DNA of 53,581 nt from Patescibacteria group bacterium (GTDB lineage Bacteria > Patescibacteriota > Minisyncoccia > UBA6257 > 2-01-FULL-56-20): NCBI GenBank assembly GCA_038063055.1, contig JBBTVY010000004.1:1-53581 (forward strand), read 5' to 3'. A model generated the notes under the pieces. That model had not been told where the DNA came from. It saw nothing but the letters and a program-made list of their open reading frames with translations, and made no database searches. The position numbers and the translations under genes are program-made. Position 1 is the first letter of the stretch, and every line of letters starts with the position of its first letter. Of the stretch, positions 16,187 through 53,527 are shown piece after piece.

Positions 16187-17185
16187 ATGAAATTTTTCGA
16201 CGCGCATACGCACGTTCAATTTGCGGCTTTTGATAAAGACCGGAAAGAAGTTATTGAACGCGCAATTAAAAACGGCGTTTCAATAATAAACGTCGGGACG
16301 CAGGCGGACACTTCGGCGGCCGCGATTAAATTGGCGAATGAATATGCGGAAGGCTTGCCCGCCGAAGCTTTAGCGAAGGCGGGGATTTACGCGAGCGTCG
16401 GTTTGCATCCGATTCACACGGAAAAGTCATATCACGATAAGAAAGAACTTGGTAACGGAGATTCAGCCAAGGCGTTTAATAGTCGCGGAGAAGATTTTGA
16501 CTACGACTACTACAAAAAACTGGCGTTTGACCCGAAAGTCGTCGCGATAGGCGAGTGTGGACTCGATTATTACCGTTTGTCGGAAGAAACCCCTTCGACA
16601 GATTCGACAAGCTCACTGCAAGCAGGCTCAGGGCAGGCAAAAGAAAAACAAAAAAAGGTATTCATAAAACAAATTGAATTGGCGAAAGATGTCAAAAAGC
16701 CCCTGATGATTCACTGTCGCTCCAGCGTACCGAAGCGAACATCGCCCCAGAATGGGGCGGGCCGTAACGCATTTCAGGACCTTATAGATATTCTTGTTTC
16801 TTGTCGCTTATCTCTTGTTTCTCCGCCGGGCGTTATACACTTCTTCAGCGGCACAGCCGGAGACGCCAAAAAGCTTTTGGAACTCGGTTTTTCGTTTACT
16901 TTTGGAGGTGTGGTTACATTTCCGCCAAGAAACAGATTCGACAAGCTCACTGCGGGAGGGAATAGCGCCGGCGATTACGACGAAGTTATAAAAATGATTC
17001 CTTTGGACAGGATTTTGAGTGAGACCGACGCGCCTTATGTGACACCGGCGCCTTATCGCGGAAAAAGAAACGAACCGCTTTATGTGATTGAAGTCGTAAA
17101 AAAACTGGCGGAAATAAAAGATGTCTCGACCGAAGAAATGGCAGAAAAAATTTTTGAAAACGCCAAAAGAATATTTAAAATTTAG
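16187..17185 (+). CDS. tatD: TatD-family metal-dependent hydrolase carrying several in-frame repeat insertions
   Basis: It has FDAHTHV, GECGLDY, MIHCR and ETDAPY motifs. At 332 aa it is about 75 aa longer than a typical TatD, and the excess maps to repeat elements. Confidence 0.9.
   Translation: MKFFDAHTHVQFAAFDKDRKEVIERAIKNGVSIINVGTQADTSAAAIKLANEYAEGLPAEALAKAGIYASVGLHPIHTEKSYHDKKELGNGDSAKAFNSRGEDFDYDYYKKLAFDPKVVAIGECGLDYYRLSEETPSTDSTSSLQAGSGQAKEKQKKVFIKQIELAKDVKKPLMIHCRSSVPKRTSPQNGAGRNAFQDLIDILVSCRLSLVSPPGVIHFFSGTAGDAKKLLELGFSFTFGGVVTFPPRNRFDKLTAGGNSAGDYDEVIKMIPLDRILSETDAPYVTPAPYRGKRNEPLYVIEVVKKLAEIKDVSTEEMAEKIFENAKRIFKI
16591..16638. repeat. family-A GC-rich repeat (ccttcgac..gctca(g/c)..cagggcaagc type), in frame in tatD
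   Basis: The sequence cccttcgacagattcgacaagctcactgcaagcaggctcagggcaggc encodes PSTDSTSSLQAGSGQA. Confidence 0.75.
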
Positions 17186-18133: not shown

Positions 18134-21100
18134 ATGAAATACGACTTTAAAAAAATAGAATCAAAGTGGCAGAAGGTTTGGCAAAATGAAGGGGTTTATG
18201 AGCCGAATTTGAAAGAAGATAAGAATTCTACCCTTCGACCCGTTCGACCAGCTCAGGGCAAGCGGGCTCAGGGTAAAAAGGCTTCGCCTTTTTATAACCT
18301 GATGATGTTCCCGTATCCTTCGGCGGAAGGTCTTCATGTCGGGAACGCTTACGCTTTCGTTGGAAGCGACATTTATGGAAGGTTCAGAAGGATGAACTGC
18401 AATGACGTTTTCGAGCCGATAGGCCTCGACGGTTTCGGGATACATTCCGAAAATTATGCACTCAAAATCGGCGTTCATCCGGCTAAGCAGGCAAAAATTT
18501 CGGAAAAAAGATTCTATAAACAACTTGCTTCGCTAGGCAACGGATTTTCCTGGGACGAAAAACTCGAAACATACGACCCGGCTTATTATAAATGGACGCA
18601 GTGGATATTCACGCAGCTTTTTAAAAAGGGATTGGCTTATCGAAAGAAACAGCCGGTCAACTGGTGTCCTTCATGCAAGACAGTTCTTGCCGACGAGCAA
18701 GTGATACAAAAGAGACAAGAGACAAGAGACAAGAGACAAGGAATTACGTTTGGAGTATGCGAAAGATGCGATACAAAAGTAATCAAAAAGGAACTCGAGC
18801 AGTGGTTTTTCAAAATTACGGATTACGCAGAAAAGCTTTTGAAAAATATAGACGGGCTGGACTGGTCGGAGAAAGTGAAAGTCGCCCAACGGAATTGGCT
18901 CGGGAAATCCGAAGGCGCGGAAATTGATTTTGAAATAAAAACCAAAGAAAAGCCGAATTTCGTATTGCTTCACGGGTATAACGGTTCTCCGAAAGGCAAT
19001 TTTCGTCCATGGCTGAAAAAAGAACTTGAGAAAAAAGGATATAAAGTTTCCGTTCCGGCGTTGCCCAATTCCAAAAATCCGAAAGTAGCGGAACAAGTGG
19101 AATATGTTTTGAAACATGCCAAATTCGACAAAAATACCGTTCTTTTGGGCCACAGCTTGGGGGCAATCGTAGCGCTCAAGGTGTTGGAAAAACTAAAGCA
19201 GCCAGTATGGCGTTCAGTGCTTGTTGCCGGTTTCGTTGAGAATAAATTTTTGGACCATGACAGGTTTGACGAGAATACATTTGACTGGAAGTTTAATGCG
19301 AAGCGCATCCGCGCGAATGTAGGCGATTTGCACATTCTTCGCGATACGACAGATGAAGTAGTTCCGCCAGACCAAGCCAAGAAACTCCAGAACCTCTTCG
19401 GAGGAGCCGTCGCTGAATTTGCGGCGCAGGAGCCCCACATGTGCGGGAAACAGGAGCCGGAAGTGCTTCGGAGTTGTGTTGATTCAATTCGTGTTTTCAC
19501 AACCCGTCCGGACACGCTTTTCGGAGCGACTTATATGGTTCTCTCGCCGGAGAATCCGCTGATTCAGAATCTGGAATCAAGAATTCAGAATTTAGTAGAG
19601 GTTAAAAAATATATTAAAAAAGCCAAAGCGAAATCGGAAGAAGAAAAGATCGCAGAGGGACAGGTTAAAACAGGCGTTGAATTGAAAGGAATCAAAGCAA
19701 TCAATCCGGCAAATGGAAAGGAAATTCCAATATGGATCGCAGATTACGTTCTGACCGGCTACGGAACCGGCGCGATTATGGCGGTTCCGGCGCACGACGA
19801 ACGCGACTTTGAATTTGCGAAGAAATATAGATTGCCGATTATCAATGTTATCGAACCGGAAACTGGAAAATCTTTGCCGAACGAAGAATACAGGCGAAGC
19901 ATTGTTGCTATAGTGGAAGACGTAAAAACCGGAAAATTCTTAACACTCAATTGGGGACAAAAACTCGGCGGCACACTTTTCATAGGCGGAGGGATAGAAA
20001 ATGGTGAAGATGAGATTAAAGCCGCAATAAGGGAAATAAAAGAAGAAACCGGATACATAGACGTTAAATTCGTCGCAAAGACGGAGCGCATGCATCATCA
20101 TTATTTCGCTTTTTCCAAAAACGTTGGGCGAAATATAAATGCAGTAGGATTGCATTTTCACCTGTCTGGCGATAAAAAAGAAGACACAAAACTGCAGGAA
20201 TACGAAAAATTTGAAATTGAATGGCTTACAAAAGAGGAAATCCTTCAAAAAGTAGAGGATGAAAACCACATCTTGAGCTTCCGACGCTTGATTCTCGGAG
20301 AAATTTATATTGGTTCCGGGAAAATGGCGAACTCCGGCAAATTCAACGGCCTCGATTCGGAAACCGCCAAATGGGAAATAACAAAATTCGTCGGCGGCAA
20401 AAGAAAAACACAATTCCGCCTGCGCGATTGGTTAATTTCCCGCCAGCGCTATTGGGGAGCTCCGATTCCGATGGTTTACTGCGAGAAATGCGCCGCTTCC
20501 GGAAAAGGCGAACGGAAAGAGATGCCTGGATGGTATTCCGTTCCAGAAAACAAGCTGCCGGTAAAATTGCCGTTCGTAAAAGATTTTCGGCCGAAGGGAA
20601 CGGGCAAATCGCCGCTGGCCACAGTCAAATCGTTTTACGAAACCAAATGCCCGAAGTGCGGAGGCAAAGCGCGGCGTGAAACGGACGTTTCCGACACATT
20701 CCTCGATTCCGCATGGTATTTCCTGCGCTACCCTTCGACTCGCTCTGCTCGCTCAGGGCAAGTCCCGTGGGATAAGGAAATAACAAAAAAATGGTTGCCG
20801 GTGAACATGTACATCGGCGGAGCCGAGCATTCCGTTCTCCATCTCCTTTATTCGAGATTTTTGACTATGTTTTTCAAAGACATTAAACTCACAAATTTTG
20901 ATGAGCCATTCACTAAATTCCGCGCGCACGGGCTTTTGATAAAAGAAGGCGCGAAAATGTCGAAATCGAAAGGCAACGTTGTTAATCCTGACAAATATAT
21001 AAAAAACTTCGGCGCCGACACATTGCGTATGTATCTTATGTTTCTCGCGCCGTTTGAGCAGGGCGGTGATTTCAGGGATGCCGGAATTTTGGGAATCAAG

Positions 21101-21703
21101 AGATTTTTAGAAAGGGTCTGGAAAATGGGAACGCAGGCAACTTTTGCAGAACATCCGGCCAACAACAGAAAGATAAAACAGGCGCTTCACGCAACTATAA
21201 AGAAAGTTACAGAAGACATCGGAGAACTGCGGTACAATACCGCCATTTCGGCGCTGATGATACTTTTAAACGAATTCGAGGCCAACCCCGGTAATGTAAC
21301 AAAAGACGACTTCGAAAATTTTCTGAAGTTACTTGCCCCGTTCGCGCCGCATATCACGGAAGAGCTCTGGTACAGAACGCAGATAAACGCAGATGGTCAC
21401 GCAGATAAACGCAGATACATCAGCGAAAATCTGCGTAGTAATCAGCGAAAATCTGCGTTCAGAAGTATCCACTTGGAGAAATGGCCGGAGTACGACAAGA
21501 ACCTAGCGAAGAGTGAAACTTTTACGCTTGTAATACAGGTAAACGGCAAAGTTCGGGACAGCGTGGAGGCGCCCTCGGGCATCGGGAAAGAGGAAGCCGA
21601 AAAACTTGCCTTAAACAGCGAAAAGGTTAAAAATATCATTAAATCGGGAACCGCAAAGAAAACGATATACGTTCCCGGACGCCTCATAAATTTGGTTGTC
21701 TAA
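18134..21703 (+). CDS. leuS: leucine--tRNA ligase, 1189 aa, with two nested foreign enzyme domains and repeat insertions
   Basis: LeuRS core motifs are present: FPYPSAEGLHVGNA (HIGH), TTRPDTLFGATY and GTGAIMAVPAHDERDFEFA (CP1 editing), RDWLISRQRYWGAPIP, and KMSKSKGN. Confidence 0.96.
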   Translation: MKYDFKKIESKWQKVWQNEGVYEPNLKEDKNSTLRPVRPAQGKRAQGKKASPFYNLMMFPYPSAEGLHVGNAYAFVGSDIYGRFRRMNCNDVFEPIGLDGFGIHSENYALKIGVHPAKQAKISEKRFYKQLASLGNGFSWDEKLETYDPAYYKWTQWIFTQLFKKGLAYRKKQPVNWCPSCKTVLADEQVIQKRQETRDKRQGITFGVCERCDTKVIKKELEQWFFKITDYAEKLLKNIDGLDWSEKVKVAQRNWLGKSEGAEIDFEIKTKEKPNFVLLHGYNGSPKGNFRPWLKKELEKKGYKVSVPALPNSKNPKVAEQVEYVLKHAKFDKNTVLLGHSLGAIVALKVLEKLKQPVWRSVLVAGFVENKFLDHDRFDENTFDWKFNAKRIRANVGDLHILRDTTDEVVPPDQAKKLQNLFGGAVAEFAAQEPHMCGKQEPEVLRSCVDSIRVFTTRPDTLFGATYMVLSPENPLIQNLESRIQNLVEVKKYIKKAKAKSEEEKIAEGQVKTGVELKGIKAINPANGKEIPIWIADYVLTGYGTGAIMAVPAHDERDFEFAKKYRLPIINVIEPETGKSLPNEEYRRSIVAIVEDVKTGKFLTLNWGQKLGGTLFIGGGIENGEDEIKAAIREIKEETGYIDVKFVAKTERMHHHYFAFSKNVGRNINAVGLHFHLSGDKKEDTKLQEYEKFEIEWLTKEEILQKVEDENHILSFRRLILGEIYIGSGKMANSGKFNGLDSETAKWEITKFVGGKRKTQFRLRDWLISRQRYWGAPIPMVYCEKCAASGKGERKEMPGWYSVPENKLPVKLPFVKDFRPKGTGKSPLATVKSFYETKCPKCGGKARRETDVSDTFLDSAWYFLRYPSTRSARSGQVPWDKEITKKWLPVNMYIGGAEHSVLHLLYSRFLTMFFKDIKLTNFDEPFTKFRAHGLLIKEGAKMSKSKGNVVNPDKYIKNFGADTLRMYLMFLAPFEQGGDFRDAGILGIKRFLERVWKMGTQATFAEHPANNRKIKQALHATIKKVTEDIGELRYNTAISALMILLNEFEANPGNVTKDDFENFLKLLAPFAPHITEELWYRTQINADGHADKRRYISENLRSNQRKSAFRSIHLEKWPEYDKNLAKSETFTLVIQVNGKVRDSVEAPSGIGKEEAEKLALNSEKVKNIIKSGTAKKTIYVPGRLINLVV
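18231..18276. repeat. family-A repeat, in frame in leuS (N-terminus)
   Basis: The sequence cccttcgacccgttcgaccagctcagggcaagcgggctcagggtaa encodes LRPVRPAQGKRAQGK. Confidence 0.75.
18711..18738. repeat. (agagaca)x4 heptamer microsatellite inside leuS
   Basis: There are four perfect tandem heptamers encoding RQETRDKRQ. They lie between the CPSC and CERC zinc-knuckle cysteines. Confidence 0.9.
18947..19489 (+). other. alpha/beta-hydrolase (YdeN/RBBP9 serine-hydrolase-like) domain nested in LeuRS (aa ~272-452)
   Basis: It has NFVLLHGYNGSPKGNF, the nucleophile elbow LLGHSLGA, then DTTDEVVP and EPHM as candidate Asp and His. It lies between the LeuRS segments GAEIDF and IRVFTTRPDT. Confidence 0.8.
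19889..20299 (+). other. Nudix hydrolase domain nested in the LeuRS CP1 editing domain (aa ~586-722)
   Basis: A perfect Nudix box GX5EX7REUXEEXGU is present as GGIENGEDEIKAAIREIKEETGY (nt 19988-20056). Confidence 0.85.
20730..20763. repeat. family-A repeat, in frame in leuS (anticodon-binding side)
   Basis: The sequence cccttcgactcgctctgctcgctcagggcaagtc encodes PSTRSARSGQV. Confidence 0.75.
21377..21460. repeat. family-B repeat (cgcagataaacgcagat / atcagcgaaaatctgcg), in frame in leuS
   Basis: It contains internal direct and inverted copies of cgcagat/atctgcg and encodes QINADGHADKRRYISENLRSNQRKSAF. Confidence 0.8.
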
Positions 21704-35309: not shown

Positions 35310-35380
35310 CGGGCTGTCGTATACCGGTAGTACGCATACTTTGGGAGTATGTAGACTGGGTTCAATTCCCAGCAGCCCGA
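35310..35380 (+). tRNA. tRNA-Pro(TGG)
   Basis: Manual cloverleaf: CGGGCTG/CAGCCCG (C1:G72), anticodon loop TTTGGGA. Confidence 0.9.
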
Positions 35381-35446
35381 CACGAATTTTCCCCAAGAGC
35401 GCAGCGATTGGTCGGAAAATTCAGTGCCCCGCCATCGGCGGGGCGA
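35381..35446 (+). repeat. conserved two-hairpin trailer module, copy A (after tRNA-Pro(TGG))
   Basis: It contains gaattttcc..ggaaaattc and gccccgcc-atc-ggcggggc hairpins. It is nearly identical to 46589-46654 on the opposite strand, after tRNA-Pro(GGG). Confidence 0.7.
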
Positions 35447-35458
35447 TATCCGAAGTAT

Positions 35459-40534: not shown

Positions 40535-40585
40535 GCTCCTTCGACCCTTCGACTACGCTCGGGGCAGGCAAGCTCAGGACAAGTC
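40535..40585. repeat. family-A repeat, intergenic (upstream of infA)
   Basis: The sequence is gctccttcgacccttcgactacgctcggggcaggcaagctcaggacaagtc. Confidence 0.75.
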
Positions 40586-42695: not shown

Positions 42696-42711
42696 TAAAA
42701 TAAACAAAAAT

Positions 42712-42745
42712 TTTCTAGATTCTACTTTCTAGATTCTAGATTCTC
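42712..42745. repeat. 7-nt-periodic array (ttctaga/ttctact) in the rpoA 5' UTR
   Basis: The sequence is ttctagattctactttctagattctagattctcg. Confidence 0.8.
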
Positions 42746-42752
42746 GTCAATC

Positions 42753-43565
42753 ATGAACTACACTTATCTAAGCGAAACAATAGGAATAAAAACGGTTTCC
42801 GAAGACGCAAAAAAGGGAATATTTGAAATAGAAGGCCTTTATTCCGGTTACGGTCTTACGATTGGCAACGCCATTCGCAGGGCTCTACTCTCTTCGCTTC
42901 CCGGGGCGGCGGTAACATACATAAAAATAAAAAACGCCCAGCATGAATTTTCCACCCTGCCTGGCCTGAAAGAAGACCTGGTCGATTTAACGCTTAATTT
43001 CAAAAGAATACGCTTTAAAATGCACACCGACGAGACTCAAATACTTACCCTTAAGATAAAAGGCGAAAAAGAAGTTACGGCGGGGGACATAAAAACCAGT
43101 TCCGTCGTGGAAGTGGCCAATCCGGACGAACACGTTGCCTCCATGACCTCCAAGAACGCCGAGCTCGATATTGAAATTACGGTTGAGAAGGGTTTGGGTT
43201 ATTCGTCCGTCGAGTCGAGGAAGGAAAAAAAGCTGACTGTCGGCCTGATAGGAATCGACGCGTTTTTTTCGCCGGTCAGGAAAGTCAATTACACCATTGA
43301 AAACATGCGCGTCGGCGAACACACCGATTACAACCGTCTCCGAGTCGAGATAGAAACCGACGGCACTGTCAGTCCGTCTTCCGCGCTCCACAAAACGGCG
43401 AACATACTTAACGACCACTTCCAGAAAGTTTCAGCCGTTCAGGTTCAGGAATTTGAAATGGCCGGCGCAAAATCTTCAAAGCATACGAAGAAAGAAAAAG
43501 AAAACGAAGAAACTCCCAAGAAAAAAGGACGTTCCCCAAAAAAGAATGTAGAAAGTAGTAAGTAG
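42753..43565 (+). CDS. rpoA: DNA-directed RNA polymerase alpha subunit, N-terminal domain only plus Lys-rich tail
   Basis: It has GYGLTIGNAIRRALLSSLPGAAVT and the NTD insert/dimerisation regions. The protein ends at 270 aa with KHTKKEKENEETPKKKGRSPKK and has no alpha-CTD. Confidence 0.92.
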   Translation: MNYTYLSETIGIKTVSEDAKKGIFEIEGLYSGYGLTIGNAIRRALLSSLPGAAVTYIKIKNAQHEFSTLPGLKEDLVDLTLNFKRIRFKMHTDETQILTLKIKGEKEVTAGDIKTSSVVEVANPDEHVASMTSKNAELDIEITVEKGLGYSSVESRKEKKLTVGLIGIDAFFSPVRKVNYTIENMRVGEHTDYNRLRVEIETDGTVSPSSALHKTANILNDHFQKVSAVQVQEFEMAGAKSSKHTKKEKENEETPKKKGRSPKKNVESSK

Positions 43566-43636
43566 AATGTAGCGGAATAAATCCCGTTTAACTATAAACT
43601 TCTACATTCTACATTCTACATTCTAATTTCTAATCT
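43547..43636. repeat. inverted 7-nt-periodic arrays (gtagaat / attctac) spanning the rpoA stop to the rplQ start
   Basis: The arms gtagaaagtagtaagtagaatgtag ... cttctacattctacattctacattctaatttctaat are complementary. Confidence 0.8.
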
Positions 43637-44807: not shown

Positions 44808-44857
44808 CACCCCGAGATTACCTGCCCTGAGCCGAGTCGAAGGGTCGAACGGGTGGA
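44808..44857. repeat. family-A repeat, intergenic, opposite orientation (after rpsI)
   Basis: The sequence is ccaccccgagattacctgccctgagccgagtcgaagggtcgaacgggtgg, with complementary ends ccaccc/gggtgg. Confidence 0.75.
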
Positions 44858-46585: not shown

Positions 46586-46588
46586 ATT

Positions 46589-46654
46589 TCGCCCCGCCAC
46601 GGGCGGGGCACTGAATTTTCCAGCCAATCGCTTCGCTCTTGGGAAAAATTCGTG
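46589..46654 (-). repeat. conserved two-hairpin trailer module, copy B (after tRNA-Pro(GGG))
   Basis: Its reverse complement matches 35381-35446. The few differences lie outside the stem pairs, including the loop of the gccccgcc hairpin. Confidence 0.7.
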
Positions 46655-46725
46655 TCGGGGTGCGGAGAATCGAACTCCGACTACAACCACCCCATGGTCG
46701 CGTACTACCGTTATACTACACCCCG
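46655..46725 (-). tRNA. tRNA-Pro(GGG)
   Basis: Manual cloverleaf: CGGGGTG/CACCCCG, anticodon loop ATGGGGT. Confidence 0.9.
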
Positions 46726-46777: not shown

Positions 46778-46892
46778 AAGCGGCGCAAATTCAAAATCCG
46801 AAGCGCCAAATTACAAACAATATCTAAATCTCAAATTTCAAATGTTTGTGATTTGTAAATTTTGAATTTGTTTAGGATTTAGAAATTAGAAT

Positions 46893-47081
46893 TTAGGATT
46901 TACGCTGCTTATGCAGCGTTCTAAGGCACTGGGTGCAGATAAGTTTGCGAACGCCGCCTGTTTTGGTCCACTGGAGATTCGGATACTTTCTCGATTTGGA
47001 AACGGGATTATAGTGGCCCCGGAGAAGTCTTCTTCTTCCTCCCATAATCGAGCCTTTCCCGCAAATTGAGCACTGTCTCAT
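46893..47081 (-). CDS. rpmB: 50S ribosomal protein L28
   Basis: It has MRQCSICGKGSIMG...VSKS.RK..PNLQ. Confidence 0.9.
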   Translation of the reverse strand: MRQCSICGKGSIMGGRRRLLRGHYNPVSKSRKYPNLQWTKTGGVRKLICTQCLRTLHKQRKS

Positions 47082-47084
47082 TGT

Positions 47085-47166
47085 TTAGAATCTAGAATCT
47101 AGAATTTAGAATTTAGAACATAATAACTTTCTACTACATTCTACATACTACTTTCTACATTCTCGT
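47085..47166. repeat. 7-nt-periodic arrays (tctagaa, tttagaa, attctac) upstream of rpmB
   Basis: The sequence is tagaatctagaatctagaatttagaatttagaa ... ctttctactacattctacatactactttctacattctc. Confidence 0.8.
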
Positions 47167-47168
47167 TT

Positions 47169-47666
47169 TTATTCGACTTTGACTTTAAGTTTTTTCGTCT
47201 TCTTTCTGGTAAATTTGGGGAGTTTTACTGTCAGAACGCCGTCTTTGAAGTTTACCGTGGCGCCGTCCGGGTCTACTTCTTCCGGAAGTATGACTGACCT
47301 TGAAAATCGCCCCCAGTAGCATTCCTGATAGAAATAGTCTTCTTCTTTGATTTTTTCGTTATGGCGGCGTTCGCCCCTGATGGTTATCGAATCACTGGAA
47401 ACGTTTATATCCAGGTCTTCCGGTTTGACTCCGGCAATCGCGGATTCGACGACTATTTCCGTCGGCGTCTGGTAGACGTCAATGGTAAGTTTTCCCTCCG
47501 TTTCCGGAATGTTGTCCGTGAATTTAGGCGTTAACGCGATTTCTTCCGAATCGGCCTCGTCGTCGTTTTCTGGTGAAGCCGGCGGACTCGCCTCGCCGGA
47601 GCCTCGGCGAAGCGGGCGGCCGCCCTTGGTCAGATTTTCGAAAAATTGTTCTTCGGAGTTTGACAT
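47169..47666 (-). CDS. Hsp20/alpha-crystallin small heat-shock protein
   Basis: It has LTIDVYQTPTEIVVESAIAGVKPEDLDINV..ITIRGER and DGVLTVKLPK. I prefer ATG 47666, but TTG 47681 is an alternative start. Confidence 0.9.
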   Translation of the reverse strand: MSNSEEQFFENLTKGGRPLRRGSGEASPPASPENDDEADSEEIALTPKFTDNIPETEGKLTIDVYQTPTEIVVESAIAGVKPEDLDINVSSDSITIRGERRHNEKIKEEDYFYQECYWGRFSRSVILPEEVDPDGATVNFKDGVLTVKLPKFTRKKTKKLKVKVE

Positions 47667-48616: not shown

Positions 48617-51493
48617 TTACCACTCTTCCATCATCAAAAATCCGCCAGCGCGAATTTTTTGGAATATGGCTTCCGTGACGAACGGCATGAACGGATGAAG
48701 CATTTTCAGGCACTCAATAAGTATCGTTTCAAGCGTGGAGTAAGCCGCGGCGGCATCAGATTCTTCTTTAGCGCTCAAGCGCGCCTGCCCGCCGTAGCTT
48801 TGTCCGGCCTTCGCAGCCGAAGCGGCAGCTTCGGCGGAGTAGGCACGAAGGCGGGGCTTATAACTTTCTATTATTTTGTCGGCAAAATTGTGCCAGACAT
48901 AGTGATAAACCGTTTCGGCGGCCAGATGGAATTCGTAGCGTTCAATGTGCCTGCCGACTTTCGCTTTTATTTTTTTGAGTTCGTTAATGTTTTTTTTGTC
49001 GGCTGCGGTTAATTTCACAATACTTCCGCCCGGTTTTTTCGAATTGTTTCGCCCCGGTTTATTCATAAGAATAAACCGGCTTATATTCCATATTTTTGTT
49101 GCGAAGTTTCTGTAGCCCCTTATTTTATCTTCCGAAATGACTATGTCTTTTCCGGCCGTGTTTCCTGCGACGAGCGCGATGCGAAGAGCGTCGCTTCCGT
49201 AAATTTCGGCGACACCGAGCGGGTCTATTACATTACCCTTGGACTTCGACATTTTTATCTTGTCTTTATCCAGAACCAGGCCGTGGAGATAAACGTTTTT
49301 GAAGGGAATCTTCCCAGTCGTGTAAAGTCCGAGCATTACCATCCGCGCAACCCAGAAGAAAAGAATATCGTATCCGGTTTCCATGACGTCGGTCGGATAG
49401 AATGTCTTAAAGTCGTTCGATGTTCGATGTTCGATGTTCGAACGCCAAACTTTTAACTTCGAACTTTGGCCGCTGGCCAAAAGCGTAGCGAATGGCCACT
49501 GCCCGGAAGAGAACCAGGTATCGAAAACATCACTATCCTGTTCATAGAAGTGATTTCCGCATTTCTTGCAAGGCTCAAGCATGTCGAGTTGTATTATCTC
49601 GGCGTTCTTTATGGAGGGCCTCGAAAGCGCTTCCTTTGGGTCAAGATTTTTTATTCGCTTATTGATCATGCGTATCGTTCCGCCATGCGTGACCAAAACA
49701 ACGTTTTTGTGATTGTTTTTTAAATGATGTGAAGAAAAAGCTTTCCACGCGCGTTGTTCTACATCGTAATAACTTTCTCCGCCATTATATTTGTTTTCAT
49801 ACATATAAGGTTTGCGGCCGTGCTTGAATAGTTCTTCTCTATCCATTCCTTCGACTTCGCCGTAGGAACGCTCTCTTAAGTTCTCGTCGATTATAATCTC
49901 CGCTCCAGTTTCTTTTCGGATAACTTCGGCGGTTTGTTGGCAACGCGCTGAATCCGAGGTTATTACGAGGTCGATATTGTAAATTTTTAGCTTTTTAGCC
50001 GCATCTTTTGCCTGATCGAATCCTGTTTGGTTCAGAGAAATATCGGCATGTCCCATAACCCGGTTTTCTTTGTTCCAATCCGTTTCCCCGTGCCTGACCA
50101 GAAACCACCGCGATTTAACATCGGGGTTTATGCTTGGTTCGGAGCAGGAGAGGCAGTACCAGGCGGGGATTCTTATTCCCCAGACGATTTGCCGCGATAT
50201 GTTCCAGTCGCGGATGTTTTTAAGCCAGTGGAGATAAACTTTTTTGCCGCTTTCCGGGCGGAAAGTTATTTTATTTGCGGCTTTTATGGCTTTTTCCGCG
50301 AGCGGTTTTGTTTTAACGAACCACTGCCGAAGAATTCTCGGTTCAAGAACATTTTGGCATTTATAACAGGTGGCTACGGAGTGTTTGTAATTCCGGTCTA
50401 TTTTTGCGAGCAACCCTTCTTTTTCCATATCCTCTTCGATCAGTTTTCTGGCATCGGCTATTTTCAAACCGTGATATCTTTTAGATTTCTCGTTATCGGA
50501 AAACGCGCTTAAGTCCATGCGGCCGTATTGGTCGATTACTTTCTTGGGGGCGGGAATTTCGTTTTCATGCCTTTTCCATATTTCAAAGTCGTTCGGGTCA
50601 TGTGCCGGAGTAACTTTGACCGCGCCGGTGCCGAATTTCATGTCGACTGCGTCGTCGGCGATAACTTTTATTTTCGCCGGTCCAAGAAGCGTTTTTATTT
50701 CTATTTCTTTGCCGACGTATTTCGAATATCTTTTATCTTTCGGATTAACCGCAACCGCCGTATCGCCGAATTTGGTTTCCGGGCGGACTGTTGCCAGCTC
50801 CAATGGGCCGTACTTTATATAATAGAGCGGGTCTTCTCTCTCGATATATTTGGTTTCAAGTTCCGAAAGTGTCGTCTGGTGTTTTGCGCACCAGTTGACT
50901 ATGCGATTGTCGCGGTAGGCCAAGCCGTCCTTATAAAGTTTTTCGAATGTTTGGTAAACGATTTTGACTATATCCGGGTCGAGCGTGAATTTCTCGCGAG
51001 ACCAGTCGCAGGAGGCGCCTAACTTGCGGAGCTGTTCCTCCATTATTTTTTTGTTGGATTGCGTGAATTCCCATATTTCTTTGAAAAGCTGTTCTCTCGG
51101 TATCTCGAACCTGTTTCTTCCTTCTTTGTCGAGTTTTTTGTCGAACACAACCTGCGTTTCGAATCCCGCGTGGTCGGCGCCCGGAAGCCACAAAGTTTTT
51201 CTGCCCTTCATCCGCCAGAAACGGATTAAAATATCCTGAAGAGTTATGAATACAGCGTGGCCGAGATGAAGCGAGCCGTTGGCGTTCGGCGGAGGCATTA
51301 TTATGCAGAACGTTGATTTACGCGGATTTCTGCGCCGATTTGCGCTGATTTTATATCCGCGCTTATCTGCGTTTATATCTGCGCCCATCTGCGGCGAGTT
51401 GTCTGGATTAAAATACCCGGATTTTTCCCAGAGTTTGTATATTTCTCCCTCCGTTTTCCGGTGGTCGTATCTCGGTTCCAAAAGTTCAAGCAT
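48617..51493 (-). CDS. valS: valine--tRNA ligase, 958 aa, with a nested histidine-phosphatase domain and repeat insertions
   Basis: It has PPPNANGSLHLGHA (HIGH), TGAVKVTPAHDPNDFE (editing), WNISRQIVWGIRIPAWYC, DVFDTWFSSG and KMSKSKGN. Confidence 0.96.
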   Translation of the reverse strand: MLELLEPRYDHRKTEGEIYKLWEKSGYFNPDNSPQMGADINADKRGYKISANRRRNPRKSTFCIIMPPPNANGSLHLGHAVFITLQDILIRFWRMKGRKTLWLPGADHAGFETQVVFDKKLDKEGRNRFEIPREQLFKEIWEFTQSNKKIMEEQLRKLGASCDWSREKFTLDPDIVKIVYQTFEKLYKDGLAYRDNRIVNWCAKHQTTLSELETKYIEREDPLYYIKYGPLELATVRPETKFGDTAVAVNPKDKRYSKYVGKEIEIKTLLGPAKIKVIADDAVDMKFGTGAVKVTPAHDPNDFEIWKRHENEIPAPKKVIDQYGRMDLSAFSDNEKSKRYHGLKIADARKLIEEDMEKEGLLAKIDRNYKHSVATCYKCQNVLEPRILRQWFVKTKPLAEKAIKAANKITFRPESGKKVYLHWLKNIRDWNISRQIVWGIRIPAWYCLSCSEPSINPDVKSRWFLVRHGETDWNKENRVMGHADISLNQTGFDQAKDAAKKLKIYNIDLVITSDSARCQQTAEVIRKETGAEIIIDENLRERSYGEVEGMDREELFKHGRKPYMYENKYNGGESYYDVEQRAWKAFSSHHLKNNHKNVVLVTHGGTIRMINKRIKNLDPKEALSRPSIKNAEIIQLDMLEPCKKCGNHFYEQDSDVFDTWFSSGQWPFATLLASGQSSKLKVWRSNIEHRTSNDFKTFYPTDVMETGYDILFFWVARMVMLGLYTTGKIPFKNVYLHGLVLDKDKIKMSKSKGNVIDPLGVAEIYGSDALRIALVAGNTAGKDIVISEDKIRGYRNFATKIWNISRFILMNKPGRNNSKKPGGSIVKLTAADKKNINELKKIKAKVGRHIERYEFHLAAETVYHYVWHNFADKIIESYKPRLRAYSAEAAASAAKAGQSYGGQARLSAKEESDAAAAYSTLETILIECLKMLHPFMPFVTEAIFQKIRAGGFLMMEEW
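49414..49470. repeat. heptamer array (gttcgat)x3-gttcgaa plus partner arm, in frame in valS
   Basis: The sequence tcgttcgatgttcgatgttcgatgttcgaacgccaaacttttaacttcgaac encodes WRSNIEHRTSNDF. Confidence 0.8.
49580..50113 (-). other. histidine phosphatase (phosphoglycerate-mutase-like) domain nested in ValRS (aa ~461-638)
   Basis: It has the RHGETDWN catalytic motif, SDSARCQQTA, ERSYGEVEG and VLVTHGGTIR. It is inserted between CLSC (aa 447-450) and CKKC (aa 642-645) of the ValRS zinc knuckle. Confidence 0.85.
51311..51391. repeat. family-B repeat, in frame in valS (before HIGH)
   Basis: The sequence gcgcagat / atctgcgtttat... encodes QMGADINADKRGYKISANRRRNPRKST. Confidence 0.8.
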
Positions 51494-53434: not shown

Positions 53435-53451
53435 GTAATAACTGATGGCTT

Positions 53452-53527
53452 GCACTGAGCGAGCCTTCGACTTGACTCAGGTCAAGGCGGAACGAGTCGA
53501 AGTGCCCGCACTGAGCGAGTCGAAGTG
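53452..53527. repeat. family-A-related repeats, intergenic (between tsaD and tRNA-Glu)
   Basis: The sequence is gcactgagcgagccttcgacttgactcaggtcaaggcggaacgagtcgaagtgcccgcactgagcgagtcgaagtg. Confidence 0.7.

What the first reader, a model, noticed from the sequence alone, without database searches (positions are those of the whole stretch)
18947..20299. LeuRS carries two nested foreign enzyme domains: an alpha/beta serine hydrolase and a Nudix hydrolase
SEEN: The 1189-aa LeuRS is one uninterrupted ORF with all core motifs. Two complete extra domains are spliced into it. (1) aa ~272-452 (NFVLLHGYNGSPKGNF...LLGHSLGA...DTTDEVVP...EPHM) is a YdeN/RBBP9-type serine-hydrolase pattern. It is inserted exactly between GAEIDF and IRVFTTRPDTLFGATY, at the entry to the CP1 editing domain. 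(2) aa ~586-722 has a perfect Nudix box, GGIENGEDEIKAAIREIKEETGY. It is inserted in the CP1 loop after AHDERDFEFAKKYRLPIINVI and before GKFNGLDSETA. ESTABLISHED: Ordinary bacterial LeuRS is about 800-880 aa and has neither domain. Nudix enzymes hydrolyse nucleoside-diphosphate-X compounds, including Ap4A, which aaRSs make as a side product. INFERENCE: This may be a composite aaRS coupling aminoacylation/editing to nucleotide-metabolite or ester hydrolysis. Alternatively, essential aaRS genes may act as safe harbours for domain capture in reduced genomes. I did not recognise an intein signature: no Cys/Ser/Thr-start plus HN-end junctions.
Basis: partly seen in the sequence, partly recalled or inferred. 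Interest (0 to 1): 0.8.

Follow-up and report, generated by a model that had tools for sequence, protein, structure and literature searches.

The report
Leucyl-tRNA synthetase carrying swappable hydrolase domains
The enzyme that loads leucine onto tRNA in this tiny-genome bacterium really does carry two complete extra enzymes (a serine esterase/aminopeptidase-type hydrolase and a Nudix pyrophosphatase) inside its proofreading domain. This is one case of a widespread, apparently undescribed system of interchangeable hydrolase modules that travel with leucyl-tRNA synthetase, inserted in it or encoded next to it.

Summary
ORF 18134-21703 (+) is one uninterrupted 1189-aa bacterial-type LeuRS (TIGR00396, 822 bits).

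- **Insert 1:** a YdeN/RBBP9-type serine hydrolase (PF06821, triad S341/D407/H435) at aa 267-451, four residues before the editing motif TTRPDT.
- **Insert 2:** a Nudix domain with a perfect Nudix box (aa 619-641) at aa ~578-724, about 20 residues after the editing Asp.

It is not an assembly artefact or an intein. The same two sites are occupied in over 100 independent Patescibacteria assemblies, and the catalytic residues are conserved.

Three new points:

1. The sites are hot spots. Presence and absence are mosaic, insert and core similarity are decoupled, and clear cassette swaps occur. Other cargos are Ham1/ITPase, GNAT, a second hydrolase and an IS200-like domain.
2. Of 7 free-standing members of the hydrolase family whose context was looked up, 5 abut leuS and a sixth lies 1.35 kb upstream. 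One abuts an archaeal-type leuS in an operon with a YbaK deacylase and Ham1.
3. The other aaRS hosts found (IleRS, ValRS, AlaRS) are also editing synthetases, with single fusions to other housekeeping proteins. The window's own ValRS carries a histidine phosphatase.

The best reading is accessory hydrolase cassettes functionally tied to editing synthetases. Their substrates are unknown.

The parts
18134..21703 (+). leuS: one uninterrupted ORF, 1189 aa, bacterial-type leucyl-tRNA synthetase that hosts both inserts
   Evidence: ORF. TIGR00396 scores 822 bits in 3 stretches; the AF2 model has pLDDT 86.1 and pTM 0.74 and superposes on solved LeuRS structures with TM 0.80-0.82 (normalised to the target).
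18335..18346 (+). HIGH-type signature of the synthetic site, here H-V-G-N (aa 68-71)
   Evidence: H68 and G70 are invariant in 60 relatives.
18932..19486 (+). Insert 1 (site 1), aa 267-451: YdeN/RBBP9-type alpha/beta serine hydrolase domain
   Evidence: PF06821 and PF00561 score above their cut-offs; the insert profile hits YdeN 1uxo at 2.6e-29 and RBBP9 at 8e-21; pLDDT is about 85-93 across the segment; site 1 is occupied by about 185-190 aa in 89 of 120 relatives.
19154..19156 (+). Codon of Ser341, the nucleophile in G-H-S-L-G-A
   Evidence: Ser is invariant in 39 diverse inserts. The xSxG motif is present in 88 of 88 hydrolase inserts.
19352..19354 (+). Codon of Asp407, the putative catalytic acid (D-T-T-D-E-V-V-P)
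   Evidence: D or E occupies this column in all 39 aligned inserts. It aligns with the 'DDQIVP' / 'DDPFLP' acid motif of YdeN and RBBP9.
19436..19438 (+). Codon of His435, the catalytic histidine (E-P-H-M)
   Evidence: Invariant in 39 inserts and at least 90% conserved among 89.
19487..19864 (+). Core of the CP1 editing domain between the two inserts. It contains the Thr-rich motif VFTTRPDT (19493-19516) and AHDERD (19790-19807).
   Evidence: PF13603 scores 198.6 bits in 2 stretches; alignment to Tth LeuRS residues 243-371. T456, T457, R458, D460, T461 and D558 are invariant in 60 relatives.
19865..20305 (+). Insert 2 (site 2), aa ~578-724: Nudix hydrolase domain
   Evidence: PF00293 scores 49-54 bits. 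AF2 pLDDT 93.9, pTM 0.88. Foldseek finds Nudix structures (best 2azw, then ADPRase and RppH); site 2 is occupied by about 175-200 aa in 73 of 120 relatives.
19988..20056 (+). Nudix box, aa 619-641: GGIENGEDEIKAAIREIKEETGY
   Evidence: exact match to GX5EX7REUXEEXGU. The full box is present in 64 of 72 Nudix inserts. E634, E637, E638 and G640 are invariant in 39 inserts.
20954..20968 (+). KMSKS loop of the synthetic site (aa 941-945)
   Evidence: Invariant in relatives.
18228..18262 (+). Short interspersed repeat translated in frame (aa 32-43, within the low-complexity stretch 'TLRPVRPAQGKRAQGK')
   Evidence: families D2/D4, with copies at 16588-16638, 16932-16972 and 20728-20762. AF2 pLDDT below 50 at aa 29-47.
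20728..20762 (+). Second copy of the same short repeat, in frame (aa ~866-877, 'PSTRSARSGQV')
   Evidence: family D4 (83% identical to 18228-18262).
21383..21417 (+). Another short repeat, in frame (aa 1084-1095, 'INADGHADKRRY'). Its partner lies in the N-terminus of the window's ValRS.
   Evidence: I10/I14, paired with 51345-51393. AF2 pLDDT below 50 at aa 1086-1107.

Best explanation
**Shown.**
- This is a functional-looking bacterial LeuRS. Its synthetic and CP1 editing motifs are intact.
- Its CP1 domain hosts two autonomous, catalytically competent-looking enzyme domains in surface loops next to the editing-site residues. One is a YdeN/RBBP9-type serine hydrolase, 4 residues before the Thr-rich strand. 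The other is a Nudix pyrophosphatase, about 20 residues after the editing Asp.
- The two loops are recurrent insertion hot spots in Patescibacterial LeuRS. They hold interchangeable cassettes that are gained, lost and replaced by recombination.
- The same hydrolase family also occurs as a separate gene. That gene abuts leuS in most cases examined, including an archaeal-type leuS in a DPANN MAG.
- The family also occurs as an insert in IleRS, ValRS and AlaRS.

**Inferred.**
- The cassettes are accessory 'clean-up' enzymes that work with editing synthetases rather than random passengers.
- The one characterised relative, RBBP9, cleaves hydrophobic alpha-aminoacyl groups that carry a free amine from amides and from a nucleoside-analogue ester. 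By analogy, insert 1 most likely hydrolyses an alpha-aminoacyl ester or amide that arises at, or is aimed at, LeuRS. Candidates are a mis-acylated tRNA 3' end, an aminoacyl-nucleotide, or an editing by-product such as a thiolactone.
- Insert 2 most likely cleaves a nucleoside-diphosphate-X by-product or analogue, such as a dinucleoside polyphosphate.
- Being tethered beside the editing pocket gives both enzymes proximity to the substrate and 1:1 expression with the synthetase.
For: **Architecture and motifs.**

**Fold.**

**Conservation of catalytic residues.**
- Ser, Gly and His are invariant in 39 diverse hydrolase inserts, and the acid position is always D or E.
- xSxG is present in 88 of 88 hydrolase inserts, and the full Nudix box in 64 of 72 Nudix inserts.
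- The CP1 editing residues are invariant whether or not inserts are present.

**Recurrence in independent assemblies.**
- 117 of the 120 best homologue clusters carry at least one insert. Some lie on contigs of 0.55-0.84 Mb.
- 74 of 80 metagenome loci found with a profile of the free-standing hydrolases have the domain inside a LeuRS ORF.

**Association with leuS when free-standing.**
- P0127, P0136 and P0137 lie directly upstream of leuS, and P0160 directly downstream.
- P0147 lies 1.35 kb upstream.
- L077 and L082 hold free copies 1.0-1.3 kb upstream.
- Only P0174 is elsewhere.

**Independent archaeal case.** L037 encodes Ser_hydrolase, Ser_hydrolase, YbaK-type tRNA_edit, Ham1-like and archaeal-type LeuRS (TIGR00395, 784 bits) as abutting or overlapping genes. 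Ham1 is also a site-1 cargo in bacterial LeuRS (P0038 and L011).

**The other aaRS hosts found are also editing synthetases.**
- ValRS P0164 and AlaRS P0173.
- IleRS L128-L131. L128 carries an LMW phosphatase, a Nudix and two hydrolases.

**The two cargos are linked to each other and to CP1 outside LeuRS.**
- A free-standing hydrolase-Nudix fusion lies at L053 2492-3601.
- Free-standing mini-CP1+Nudix proteins of 270-291 aa exist, one of them in a complete Aenigmatarchaeota genome.

**Biochemical precedent.**
- RBBP9 needs a free alpha-amine and traps Leu/Ile, Phe, Tyr and Trp (PMC8866121).
- RBBP9 activates valacyclovir, a valyl ester of a nucleoside analogue (Shenoy 2020, cited in PMC7730578).
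Against: - No substrate was or could be tested. Neither sequence nor fold assigns the Nudix to a substrate class.
- The inserts are dispensable. Close relatives lack one or both, and most other Patescibacterial LeuRS have none. An indispensable proofreading role would not predict this.
- Cargo is heterogeneous: GNAT, Ham1, histidine phosphatase, LMW phosphatase and even an IS200-like transposase domain.
- The hydrolase is occasionally fused to non-aaRS housekeeping proteins: TsaD, an EngA-type GTPase, SecA and adenylate kinase. This fits opportunistic parking.
- Adjacency to leuS could partly reflect shared ancestry of a few lineages rather than independent events. The domain tree behind the 'interleaved' picture is a neighbour-joining tree on about 180 residues.
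- Free-standing Nudix relatives (P0273, P0278) are not next to leuS.
- The geometry of the active sites relative to the editing pocket could not be measured, because no model coordinates were available.
Confidence: 0.5

Rival explanations
1. Passive 'parking' or co-expression. Permissive surface loops of large, essential, constitutively expressed translation proteins act as landing sites for small independent house-cleaning enzymes in streamlined genomes. The inserts work on general cellular substrates and have no mechanistic link to LeuRS.
For: - Cargo and host are both promiscuous.
- In the same window, ValRS carries an unrelated histidine phosphatase.
- The same genes also tolerate short in-frame repeat insertions.
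- Presence and absence are mosaic, and the editing site is intact without inserts.
- The inserts evolve much faster than the core: 41% and 34% mean identity against 67%.
Against: - This does not explain why free-standing copies abut leuS in 5 of 7 looked-up cases, with a sixth 1.35 kb upstream. It also does not explain why hydrolases and Ham1 sit in an operon with a YbaK deacylase and an archaeal-type LeuRS.
- LeuRS is the host in roughly 60% of fused representatives and in 74 of 80 metagenome loci. The other aaRS hosts are also editing enzymes.
- Both sites lie next to the editing residues rather than in any loop of the protein.
Confidence: 0.27
2. Built-in antidote. The cassettes (aminoacyl esterase/amidase, Nudix, Ham1, GNAT, phosphatases) detoxify natural aminoacyl-adenylate-mimic inhibitors or toxins that target editing synthetases. 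They would act at the target enzyme itself and turn over like defence genes.
For: - Rapid cassette replacement in nearly identical leuS backgrounds. P0111 and P0062 are 100% identical over the 3' half, but only 30-65% identical in DNA and 37% in protein over the insert.
- Mosaic gain and loss.
- Cargo types recall known immunity chemistries against aminoacyl-nucleotide antibiotics. From my own knowledge, MccE/RimL-type GNAT acetylation and MccF-type cleavage of the aminoacyl-nucleotide bond are examples.
- A GNAT+hydrolase cargo occurs in site 1 of P0198.
- NCBIfam has an 'IleRS, N-acetyltransferase domain-containing' model, NF040702.
Against: - There is no evidence that any such inhibitor exists in these communities.
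- The hydrolase is not related to MccF.
- A PADLOC scan gave nothing meaningful.
- The recombination signal may simply reflect high recombination in these populations.
Confidence: 0.15
3. Selfish in-frame mobile cassettes. These would be intein-like in population behaviour but never spliced out, and persist only because the loops tolerate them.
For: - Distribution is mosaic and insert phylogeny is decoupled from the core (Pearson 0.24 and 0.32).
- One LeuRS (P0183) carries an IS200/RAYT-like HUH domain in frame at site 1.
- Short interspersed repeats lie in frame in the same gene.
Against: - Catalytic residues of both enzymes are conserved across deep divergence. This indicates selection on enzyme activity.
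- There are no terminal repeats, no nuclease or Hint domain and no compositional anomaly in the window.
- The same enzymes exist as ordinary genes beside leuS.
Confidence: 0.06
4. Artefact: a chimeric assembly, a frameshifted fusion of neighbouring genes, or inteins removed after translation.
For: None found. The idea rests only on the unusual length of the protein.
Against: - The same junctions occur in more than 100 independent assemblies from NCBI, JGI, ENA and Logan.
- The reading frame is continuous.
- The AF2 model is confident for the whole chain.
- There is no Hint/intein hit and no Cys/Ser/Thr...His-Asn junction residues (and the sequence itself).
Confidence: 0.02

Closest known systems
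Canonical bacterial LeuRS with CP1 editing domain (T. thermophilus 1h3n/2bte, E. coli 4aq7)
   Same: The core domains are the same, and the Thr-rich and Asp editing motifs and KMSKS are present. It scores 630 bits against 1h3n. The model superposes on solved LeuRS structures with TM 0.80-0.82.
   Different: It has about 330 extra residues forming two folded enzyme domains inside CP1. A 2026 survey of domain insertions lists the LeuRS editing domain as 'insertion-exclusive', with zero cases as a host (PMC13114784). The HIGH motif reads HVGN.
YdeN (B. subtilis, PDB 1uxo) and RBBP9 (PDB 2qs9/7oex), Pfam PF06821
   Same: Insert 1 shares the family, the fold class and the Ser-Asp-His triad, and has the same size of about 180 aa. 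Free-standing members of the insert's own subfamily also exist.
   Different: Here the domain is embedded in, or encoded beside, a tRNA synthetase. The physiological substrate of YdeN is unknown. RBBP9 is a human aminopeptidase and valacyclovir esterase. No activity is known for this subfamily.
Nudix hydrolases (closest structures 2azw E. faecalis MutT/nudix, T. thermophilus ADP-ribose pyrophosphatase, E. coli RppH)
   Same: The Nudix box is exact and the fold is predicted with confidence.
   Different: The domain forms its own subfamily. It has an invariant Trp (W121 of alignment A1) and a K-x-x-N-R motif. No substrate-class signature could be assigned. It is inserted in CP1 or fused to a mini-CP1.
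Editing modules that occur either inserted or free-standing (the ProRS INS domain versus YbaK/ProXp, the AlaRS editing domain versus AlaX). This comparison rests on my own knowledge of the field.
   Same: The evolutionary logic is the same: a hydrolytic module found in cis in some lineages and as a separate gene in others. A YbaK-type gene sits in the archaeal hydrolase-Ham1-leuS cluster.
   Different: The folds are unrelated (alpha/beta hydrolase, Nudix). No deacylase activity has been shown. The canonical CP1 editing site is retained alongside the inserts.
Other aaRS with embedded enzyme domains: NCBIfam NF040702 'isoleucine-tRNA ligase, N-acetyltransferase domain-containing'
   Same: A class Ia synthetase carrying a foreign catalytic domain. 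A GNAT is also found as a site-1 cargo in a LeuRS (P0198).
   Different: The cargo and host differ. Nothing was tested about that family here beyond its appearance as a weak partial hit.
Inteins, and Rickettsia-type in-frame palindromic elements. This comparison rests on my own knowledge.
   Same: Sporadic, site-specific in-frame insertions in essential genes. Short interspersed repeats are indeed translated within this LeuRS.
   Different: The two large inserts have no splicing or homing motifs and encode conserved enzymes. They are not repeats.

Membership tests
Bacterial-type leucyl-tRNA synthetase (TIGR00396) | Whole-protein score above the curated cut-off | tested here: met
   822.1 bits against a cut-off of 548.4. 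The best PDB hits are LeuRS.
Bacterial-type leucyl-tRNA synthetase (TIGR00396) | Class I signatures HIGH and KMSKS | tested here: met
   KMSKS is exact (aa 941-945). HIGH is present as HVGN (aa 68-71), with Asn in the fourth position, as in its relatives.
Bacterial-type leucyl-tRNA synthetase (TIGR00396) | CP1 editing domain with the Thr-rich motif and the conserved Asp | tested here: met
   PF13603 scores 198.6 bits. TTRPDT (aa 456-461) and AHDERD (aa 553-558) are present and invariant in 60 relatives.
Bacterial-type leucyl-tRNA synthetase (TIGR00396) | Leucylation and editing activity | not testable with these tools
   Needs biochemistry.
Ser_hydrolase PF06821 (YdeN/RBBP9) | Profile score above Pfam's gathering threshold | tested here: met
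   33.9 bits in context and 39.1 bits isolated, against a cut-off of 22. The profile of 39 inserts hits YdeN at 2.6e-29 and RBBP9 at 8e-21.
Ser_hydrolase PF06821 (YdeN/RBBP9) | Ser-Asp-His catalytic triad in the family's positions | tested here: met
   S341 lies in GHSLGA, D407 in D-E-V-V-P and H435 in P-H-M. Ser and His are invariant, and the acid is D or E in all 39 aligned inserts.
Ser_hydrolase PF06821 (YdeN/RBBP9) | Alpha/beta-hydrolase fold | tested here: met
   In the full-length AF2 model the segment has pLDDT of about 85-93 and alternating strand/helix secondary structure. No separate fold search was run on this domain.
Ser_hydrolase PF06821 (YdeN/RBBP9) | Alpha-aminoacyl ester/amide hydrolase activity, as in RBBP9 | not testable with these tools
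   Known only by analogy with RBBP9.
Nudix hydrolase PF00293 | Nudix box GX5EX7REUXEEXGU | tested here: met
   Exact match at aa 619-641.
Nudix hydrolase PF00293 | Profile score above the gathering threshold, and the Nudix fold | tested here: met
   49.2 to 54.0 bits against a cut-off of 21.1. AF2 pLDDT 93.9. Foldseek probability 1.0 to Nudix structures, with TM up to 0.74-0.76.
Nudix hydrolase PF00293 | Assignment to a substrate subclass (Ap4A, ADP-ribose, 8-oxo-dGTP, RNA 5' ends) | tested here: inconclusive
   All NCBIfam equivalog models score far below their cut-offs. The nearest structures span several substrate classes.
Intein | Hint domain, an N-terminal Cys/Ser/Thr, and a C-terminal His-Asn followed by Cys/Ser/Thr | tested here: not met
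   There is no Hint or intein Pfam hit. The junctions read F|EIKT...DS|IRV and VIEPE...GEIYI|GSG.
Known immunity enzymes against aminoacyl-nucleotide antibiotics (MccF S66 peptidase, MccE GNAT) | Homology to MccF or MccE | tested here: not met
   Insert 1 is PF06821, not an S66 peptidase. The window protein has no GNAT. The resemblance is only in possible chemistry.

The most novel reading that the evidence does not exclude
Ultra-small bacteria and archaea (CPR/DPANN) may have an unrecognised modular layer on their editing synthetases (LeuRS first, also IleRS, ValRS and AlaRS). In this reading, interchangeable hydrolase or transferase cassettes are inserted beside the editing pocket or encoded next to the gene. 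The cassettes seen are a YdeN-type aminoacyl esterase, Nudix, Ham1, GNAT and phosphatases. They are shuffled by recombination like defence genes. They destroy either toxic by-products of amino-acid activation and editing, or natural aminoacyl-adenylate-mimic inhibitors, at the very enzyme that makes or binds them.
Probability: 0.25. Interest if true: 0.9.

Novelty: new variant of a known kind. Interest (0 to 1): 0.72.

Why it matters
- **A view of the enzyme would need revising.** aaRS editing domains are regarded as fixed insertion modules that never act as hosts (PMC13114784). Here the CP1 domain is a recurrent host for whole enzymes, and the cargo is exchangeable.
- **An orphan family gets a testable function.** The link between a YdeN/RBBP9-type hydrolase and LeuRS holds across three arrangements: insertion, gene adjacency in bacteria, and an operon with a YbaK deacylase next to an archaeal-type LeuRS. 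This is a classical 'Rosetta stone' signal. YdeN has no known function, and this points to a hypothesis in translation quality control or inhibitor resistance.
- **It may reveal a missing process.** It could expose a proofreading, sanitation or immunity step that free-living model organisms lack or perform elsewhere.
- **It is a natural protein-engineering example.** It shows which loops of an essential enzyme accept 140-190-aa domains.
- **It affects annotation.** Many of these proteins are labelled only 'alpha/beta fold hydrolase' or 'class I tRNA ligase family protein'.

Tried and rejected
1. **Intein or assembly artefact: rejected.** There are no Hint motifs, and the architecture is reproduced in more than 100 independent assemblies.
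2. **Mobile-element signatures at the insert borders: none found.** There are no flanking direct or inverted repeats and no G+C anomaly.
3. **Single-sequence homologue search with the Nudix insert.** It returned nothing, which is a limit of the word index. Repeating it with the alignment worked.
4. **The search for related loci with the broad insert alignments A1 and A2.** A tighter alignment of free-standing hydrolases (A5) worked.
5. **Apparent 1600-1700-aa 'LeuRS' matches in GTDB loci L012, L014, L017, L022, L027 and L035.** These are two adjacent class I synthetase genes joined by the matcher, not giant LeuRS proteins.
6. **Assigning the Nudix to Ap4A, ADP-ribose or RppH classes: not possible.** This was tried with NCBIfam, PDB profile search and Foldseek.
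7. **PADLOC defence models: no informative hit**.
8. **Rfam scan of the window:** only tRNAs.
9. **Literature:** seven full-text searches and four papers read found no description of hydrolase or Nudix inserts in LeuRS.
10. **Distances between active sites in the AF2 model:** could not be measured, because coordinates are not exposed.

Full report
**1.

The window has one uninterrupted ORF at 18134-21703 (+) of 1189 aa. It is a bacterial-type LeuRS: TIGR00396 scores 822 bits against a cut-off of 548, matched in three pieces. The closest solved structures are T. thermophilus, N. gonorrhoeae and E. coli LeuRS.

Pfam places two extra domains above their gathering thresholds:
- Ser_hydrolase PF06821 and Abhydrolase_1 at aa 274-428;
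- NUDIX PF00293 at aa 586-709.

The alignment to T. thermophilus LeuRS fixes the junctions.
- Insert 1 (aa 267-451) replaces a two-residue turn between Tth E240 and I243. Its C-terminus joins the strand that carries the Thr-rich editing motif (TTRPDT, aa 456-461) after only four residues.
- Insert 2 (aa ~578-724) sits between Tth ~371 and 377, about 20 residues after the editing Asp in AHDERD (aa 553-558).

The catalytic motifs are all present:
- GHSLGA with S341;
- D407 in DTTDEVVP;
- H435 in EPHM;
- an exact Nudix box GX5EX7REUXEEXGU at aa 619-641.

G+C does not differ from the flanks. No repeats border the inserts. No intein or Hint family is hit.

**2. The domains fold, and the host is not disturbed**

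An AlphaFold2 model of the Nudix insert, built on 39 homologues, has pLDDT 93.9 and pTM 0.88. It matches Nudix structures with probability 1.0. The best match is the uncharacterised E. faecalis protein 2azw, followed by ADP-ribose pyrophosphatase and RppH.

The full-length model has pLDDT 86.1 and pTM 0.74, and both inserts are confident. It superposes on solved LeuRS structures with a target-normalised TM of 0.80-0.82.

The only segments below pLDDT 50 are aa 29-47, 199-203, 688-690 and 1086-1107. Two of these coincide with short interspersed DNA repeats translated in frame.

A profile of 39 hydrolase inserts hits B. subtilis YdeN (1uxo) at 2.6e-29 and human RBBP9 at 8e-21.

**3. It is not a one-off**

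Among the 120 best homologue clusters (analysed):
- site 1 is filled with about 185-190 aa in 89 (88 hydrolases and one Ham1/ITPase);
- site 2 is filled with about 175-200 aa in 73 (72 Nudix and one second hydrolase);
- both sites are filled in 45;
- neither site holds a full-size domain in 3 (one of them, P0086, has a 107-aa unknown insert at site 2).

These come from NCBI, JGI, ENA and Logan assemblies. They are named Liptonbacteria, Sungbacteria, Jorgensenbacteria, Paceibacterota and so on, and some lie on contigs of 0.55-0.84 Mb.

This sample is biased towards the query. Among species representatives of other Patescibacteria, most LeuRS are 800-890 aa without inserts.

Database names are uninformative: 'class I tRNA ligase family protein' or 'alpha/beta fold hydrolase'. 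JGI uses 'leucyl-tRNA synthetase/predicted alpha/beta hydrolase family esterase'.

Catalytic residues are conserved.
- Ser, Gly and His are invariant, and the acid is always D or E, in 39 diverse hydrolase inserts.
- xSxG is present in 88 of 88 hydrolase inserts.
- The full Nudix box is present in 64 of 72 Nudix inserts. Five of the rest form a sub-group with Gln at the first conserved Glu and Ala or Leu at the Arg.
- The CP1 editing residues are invariant in 60 relatives, with or without inserts. The inserts therefore add to the canonical editing site and do not replace it.

**4. The two loops are hot spots for exchangeable cassettes**

On a neighbour-joining tree of 753 core columns, the four states (both, hydrolase only, Nudix only, none) are thoroughly interleaved.

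Insert identity is nearly uncorrelated with core identity. Pearson is 0.24 and 0.32, and Spearman is 0.15 and -0.04. Mean identity is 41% and 34% for the inserts against 67% for the core.
- The window protein is 82% identical in the core to both P0003 and P0004.
- It shares 80% (hydrolase) and 38% (Nudix) with P0003.
- It shares 30% (hydrolase) and 67% (Nudix) with P0004.

P0111 and P0062 have a 93% identical core but hydrolase inserts only 37% identical. At the DNA level the 3' half of the two genes is 100% identical. The 5' part is about 80-93% identical, and the insert (nt 743-1344) only 30-65%. This is a mosaic gene with a replaced cassette.

Other cargos at the same sites:

| Cargo | Where |
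|---|---|
| Ham1/ITPase | site 1 of P0038 and L011 |
| second Ser_hydrolase | site 2 of P0063, P0135, P0233 |
| Nudix + hydrolase in tandem | P0141, P0149, P0166 |
| GNAT + hydrolase | site 1 of P0198 |
| IS200/RAYT-like HUH domain ('PEHVHLL', 'SYIQNNP'), in frame | site 1 of P0183 |
| unidentified domains | site 2 of L004 and P0086 |

**5. The hydrolase travels with leuS even when it is a separate gene**

An exhaustive profile search of 1.84 billion representative proteins found 198 hits at E<=1e-30. About half of the best 150 are free-standing proteins of 175-195 aa that start with Met.

I looked up seven of them:

| Protein | Position relative to leuS |
|---|---|
| P0127 | 7 bp upstream of an insert-less LeuRS |
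| P0136 | directly upstream of an insert-less LeuRS |
| P0137 | directly upstream of a LeuRS that has only the Nudix insert |
| P0160 | 3 bp downstream of leuS |
| P0147 | 1.35 kb upstream |
| P0130 | directly upstream, in the archaeal cluster described below |
| P0174 | elsewhere |

P0130 lies in a 'Pacearchaeota archaeon' MAG. There five abutting or overlapping genes encode hydrolase, hydrolase, a YbaK-type tRNA_edit protein, a Ham1-like protein and an archaeal-type LeuRS (TIGR00395, 784 bits).

A metagenome scan with a profile of the free-standing proteins returned 80 loci.
- In 74 the domain is inside a bacterial LeuRS ORF.
- In 2 it is free, 1.0-1.3 kb upstream of leuS.
- In 4 it is inside IleRS.

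One of those IleRS (L128, 1753 aa) carries an LMW phosphatase, a Nudix and two hydrolases.

Further hosts are ValRS (P0164) and AlaRS (P0173). Single fusions to TsaD, an EngA-type GTPase, SecA, adenylate kinase and a formyltransferase also exist.

On a domain tree, free-standing forms, site-1 forms and the ValRS and AlaRS inserts are interleaved, while most site-2 forms cluster together. This suggests repeated fusion and fission. The tree is a neighbour-joining tree on about 180 residues and should be read with caution.

**6. The Nudix is tied to CP1 and to the hydrolase**

The profile search with the Nudix inserts found proteins of 270-291 aa that consist of a reduced LeuRS-type CP1 fragment with the Nudix in the same loop (P0272, P0274-P0276). 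One of them is in a complete 875-kb Aenigmatarchaeota genome and is not beside leuS. Its Thr-rich motif is degenerate.

A free-standing hydrolase-Nudix fusion also exists at L053 2492-3601.

Free Nudix relatives P0273 and P0278 are not near leuS.

**7. Mechanism**

*What is shown.* Two catalytically intact-looking hydrolases are tethered next to the editing-site residues of an otherwise canonical LeuRS. A conserved genomic partnership links this hydrolase family, and also Ham1, with LeuRS across Bacteria and Archaea. The other aaRS hosts found are also editing synthetases.

*What is inferred.* The cassettes act on compounds made at, or aimed at, these synthetases.

The only characterised PF06821 member, RBBP9, removes hydrophobic alpha-aminoacyl groups and requires a free alpha-amine. 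Its trapped acyl-enzyme species were Leu/Ile, Phe, Tyr and Trp (PMC8866121). It also hydrolyses valacyclovir, a valyl ester of a nucleoside analogue (reference in PMC7730578). This chemistry resembles the aminoacyl ester at a tRNA 3' end or an aminoacyl-nucleotide.

A related precedent comes from a different alpha/beta hydrolase. By the title of PMC4198189, the valacyclovirase BPHL is an efficient homocysteine thiolactonase. From my own knowledge, homocysteine thiolactone is the product of homocysteine editing by class I synthetases.

I therefore commit to 'accessory clean-up or proofreading hydrolases working in cis with the synthetase' as the most likely reading, at about 0.5.

Against this reading:
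- the inserts are dispensable;
- they turn over quickly;
- cargo and host are somewhat promiscuous.

These points keep two rivals alive. Passive parking in permissive loops stands at about 0.27. A built-in antidote against aminoacyl-adenylate-mimic inhibitors stands at about 0.15, and it would explain the defence-gene-like turnover and the GNAT cargo. A purely selfish element (about 0.06) is disfavoured by the conserved catalytic residues. An artefact (about 0.02) is effectively excluded.

**8. Comparison with what is known**

The protein is a member of bacterial LeuRS, PF06821 and Nudix. All sequence-level defining features were tested and met. The substrate classes are untestable here.

The architecture was not found in the literature. 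A 2026 survey explicitly lists the LeuRS editing domain as never acting as a host.

The nearest conceptual precedents are editing modules that exist both in cis and in trans (INS and YbaK, AlaX), and the NCBIfam 'IleRS with GNAT' family.

I rate it a new variant of a known kind: a multi-domain synthetase with accessory catalytic modules. The new elements are nesting inside CP1, cassette exchange, and a cross-domain leuS-hydrolase linkage.

**9. Seen in passing**

- The window's ValRS (48617-51493, minus strand) carries a histidine-phosphatase domain (PF00300, 158 bits). It has the RHG and HGG motifs and lies between two CxxC knuckles. At least two of the three synthetases in this 53-kb window therefore host foreign enzymes. 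MetRS does not.
- Several genes (LeuRS, ValRS, TatD, TsaD) contain short interspersed or palindromic repeats translated in frame.

Noticed in passing
window 48617-51493 (-); insert at 49580-50104: The window's ValRS (958 aa; NF004349 814 bits in two stretches) carries a complete histidine-phosphatase/PGM-like domain (PF00300, 158 bits, aa 464-638). The domain has the 'RHGET' and 'THGG' motifs and lies between two CxxC zinc-knuckle halves. This is a second synthetase in the same genome that hosts a foreign enzyme. The protein also lacks the usual C-terminal coiled coil.
   Followed up: partly
window 18228-18262, 20728-20762, 16588-16638, 16932-16972, 40540-40578, 44811-44849: A family of short GC-rich interspersed repeats (about 35-40 nt, '...TTCGAC...GCTCAGGGCAAG') lies in frame inside LeuRS (twice) and inside the upstream 332-aa ORF at 16187-17185. 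By position that ORF matches the TatD_DNase gene seen upstream of leuS in L048/L049. It was not itself scanned. The repeats give low-complexity peptides such as 'RPAQGKRAQGK' and 'STRSARSGQ'. One LeuRS copy coincides with the AF2 low-confidence segment at aa 29-47.
   Followed up: partly
window 21383-21417 and 51345-51393: A second short repeat ('...AACGCAGAT...') is translated in frame near the C-terminus of LeuRS ('INADGHADKRRY', AF2 pLDDT below 50). It also appears in the N-terminus of ValRS on the other strand ('GADINADKRGYKIS'). The same element is therefore inserted in two synthetase genes.
   Followed up: partly
window 52238-53455 (-); palindrome 52577-52646: TsaD is about 65-90 aa longer than its family model (405 aa, against a 314-position profile). 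It contains a 70-nt near-perfect palindrome inside the coding sequence (peptide 'LSTNNEFNTNIRIRKFGKDSLF') and other low-complexity in-frame stretches.
   Followed up: partly
window 42708-42751, 43538-43635, 46873-47174: Arrays of 7-nt units (TTCTACA/TTCTAGA and their complement) lie in several stretches near or between the listed ORFs. Together they form long imperfect inverted repeats. Their function is unknown.
   Followed up: no
window 35310-35449 and 46586-46725: A 140-nt inverted duplication (81% complementary) comprising a tRNA gene plus about 70 nt of flank. There is also a dense tRNA cluster at 28.9-35.5 kb (10 tRNAs).
   Followed up: no
L037 5001-9882 (GCA_020049755.1, 'Pacearchaeota archaeon'): An operon-like cluster of Ser_hydrolase, Ser_hydrolase, YbaK-type tRNA_edit, Ham1-like and archaeal-type LeuRS. 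The genes abut or overlap.
   Followed up: yes
L050 6001-6864 (CP066684.1, Aenigmatarchaeota archaeon, 875-kb genome); also P0272, P0275, P0276: Free-standing proteins of 270-291 aa made of a reduced bacterial-type LeuRS CP1 fragment with the Nudix domain in the same loop. The Thr-rich editing motif is degenerate in P0274. These may be a stand-alone derivative of the CP1+Nudix module.
   Followed up: partly
L053 2492-3601 (-) and 8446-10323 (+): A free-standing Ser_hydrolase-Nudix fusion protein (369 aa). In the same locus there is a class II AspRS/AsnRS-type synthetase fused to a YbaK-type tRNA_edit domain.
   Followed up: no
L128 3348-8606 (also L129-L131): IleRS of 1286-1753 aa with multiple inserted enzymes. 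L128 has an LMW phosphotyrosine-phosphatase-like domain, a Nudix and two tandem Ser_hydrolase domains inside the catalytic/CP1 region.
   Followed up: partly
P0183 aa 269-374; P0198 aa 306-388: A LeuRS with an IS200/RAYT-like HUH transposase domain translated in frame at site 1. Another LeuRS has a GNAT acetyltransferase plus the hydrolase at site 1.
   Followed up: partly
window 18335-18346: The class I 'HIGH' signature of this LeuRS and its relatives reads H-V-G-N, with Asn instead of the final His.
   Followed up: no
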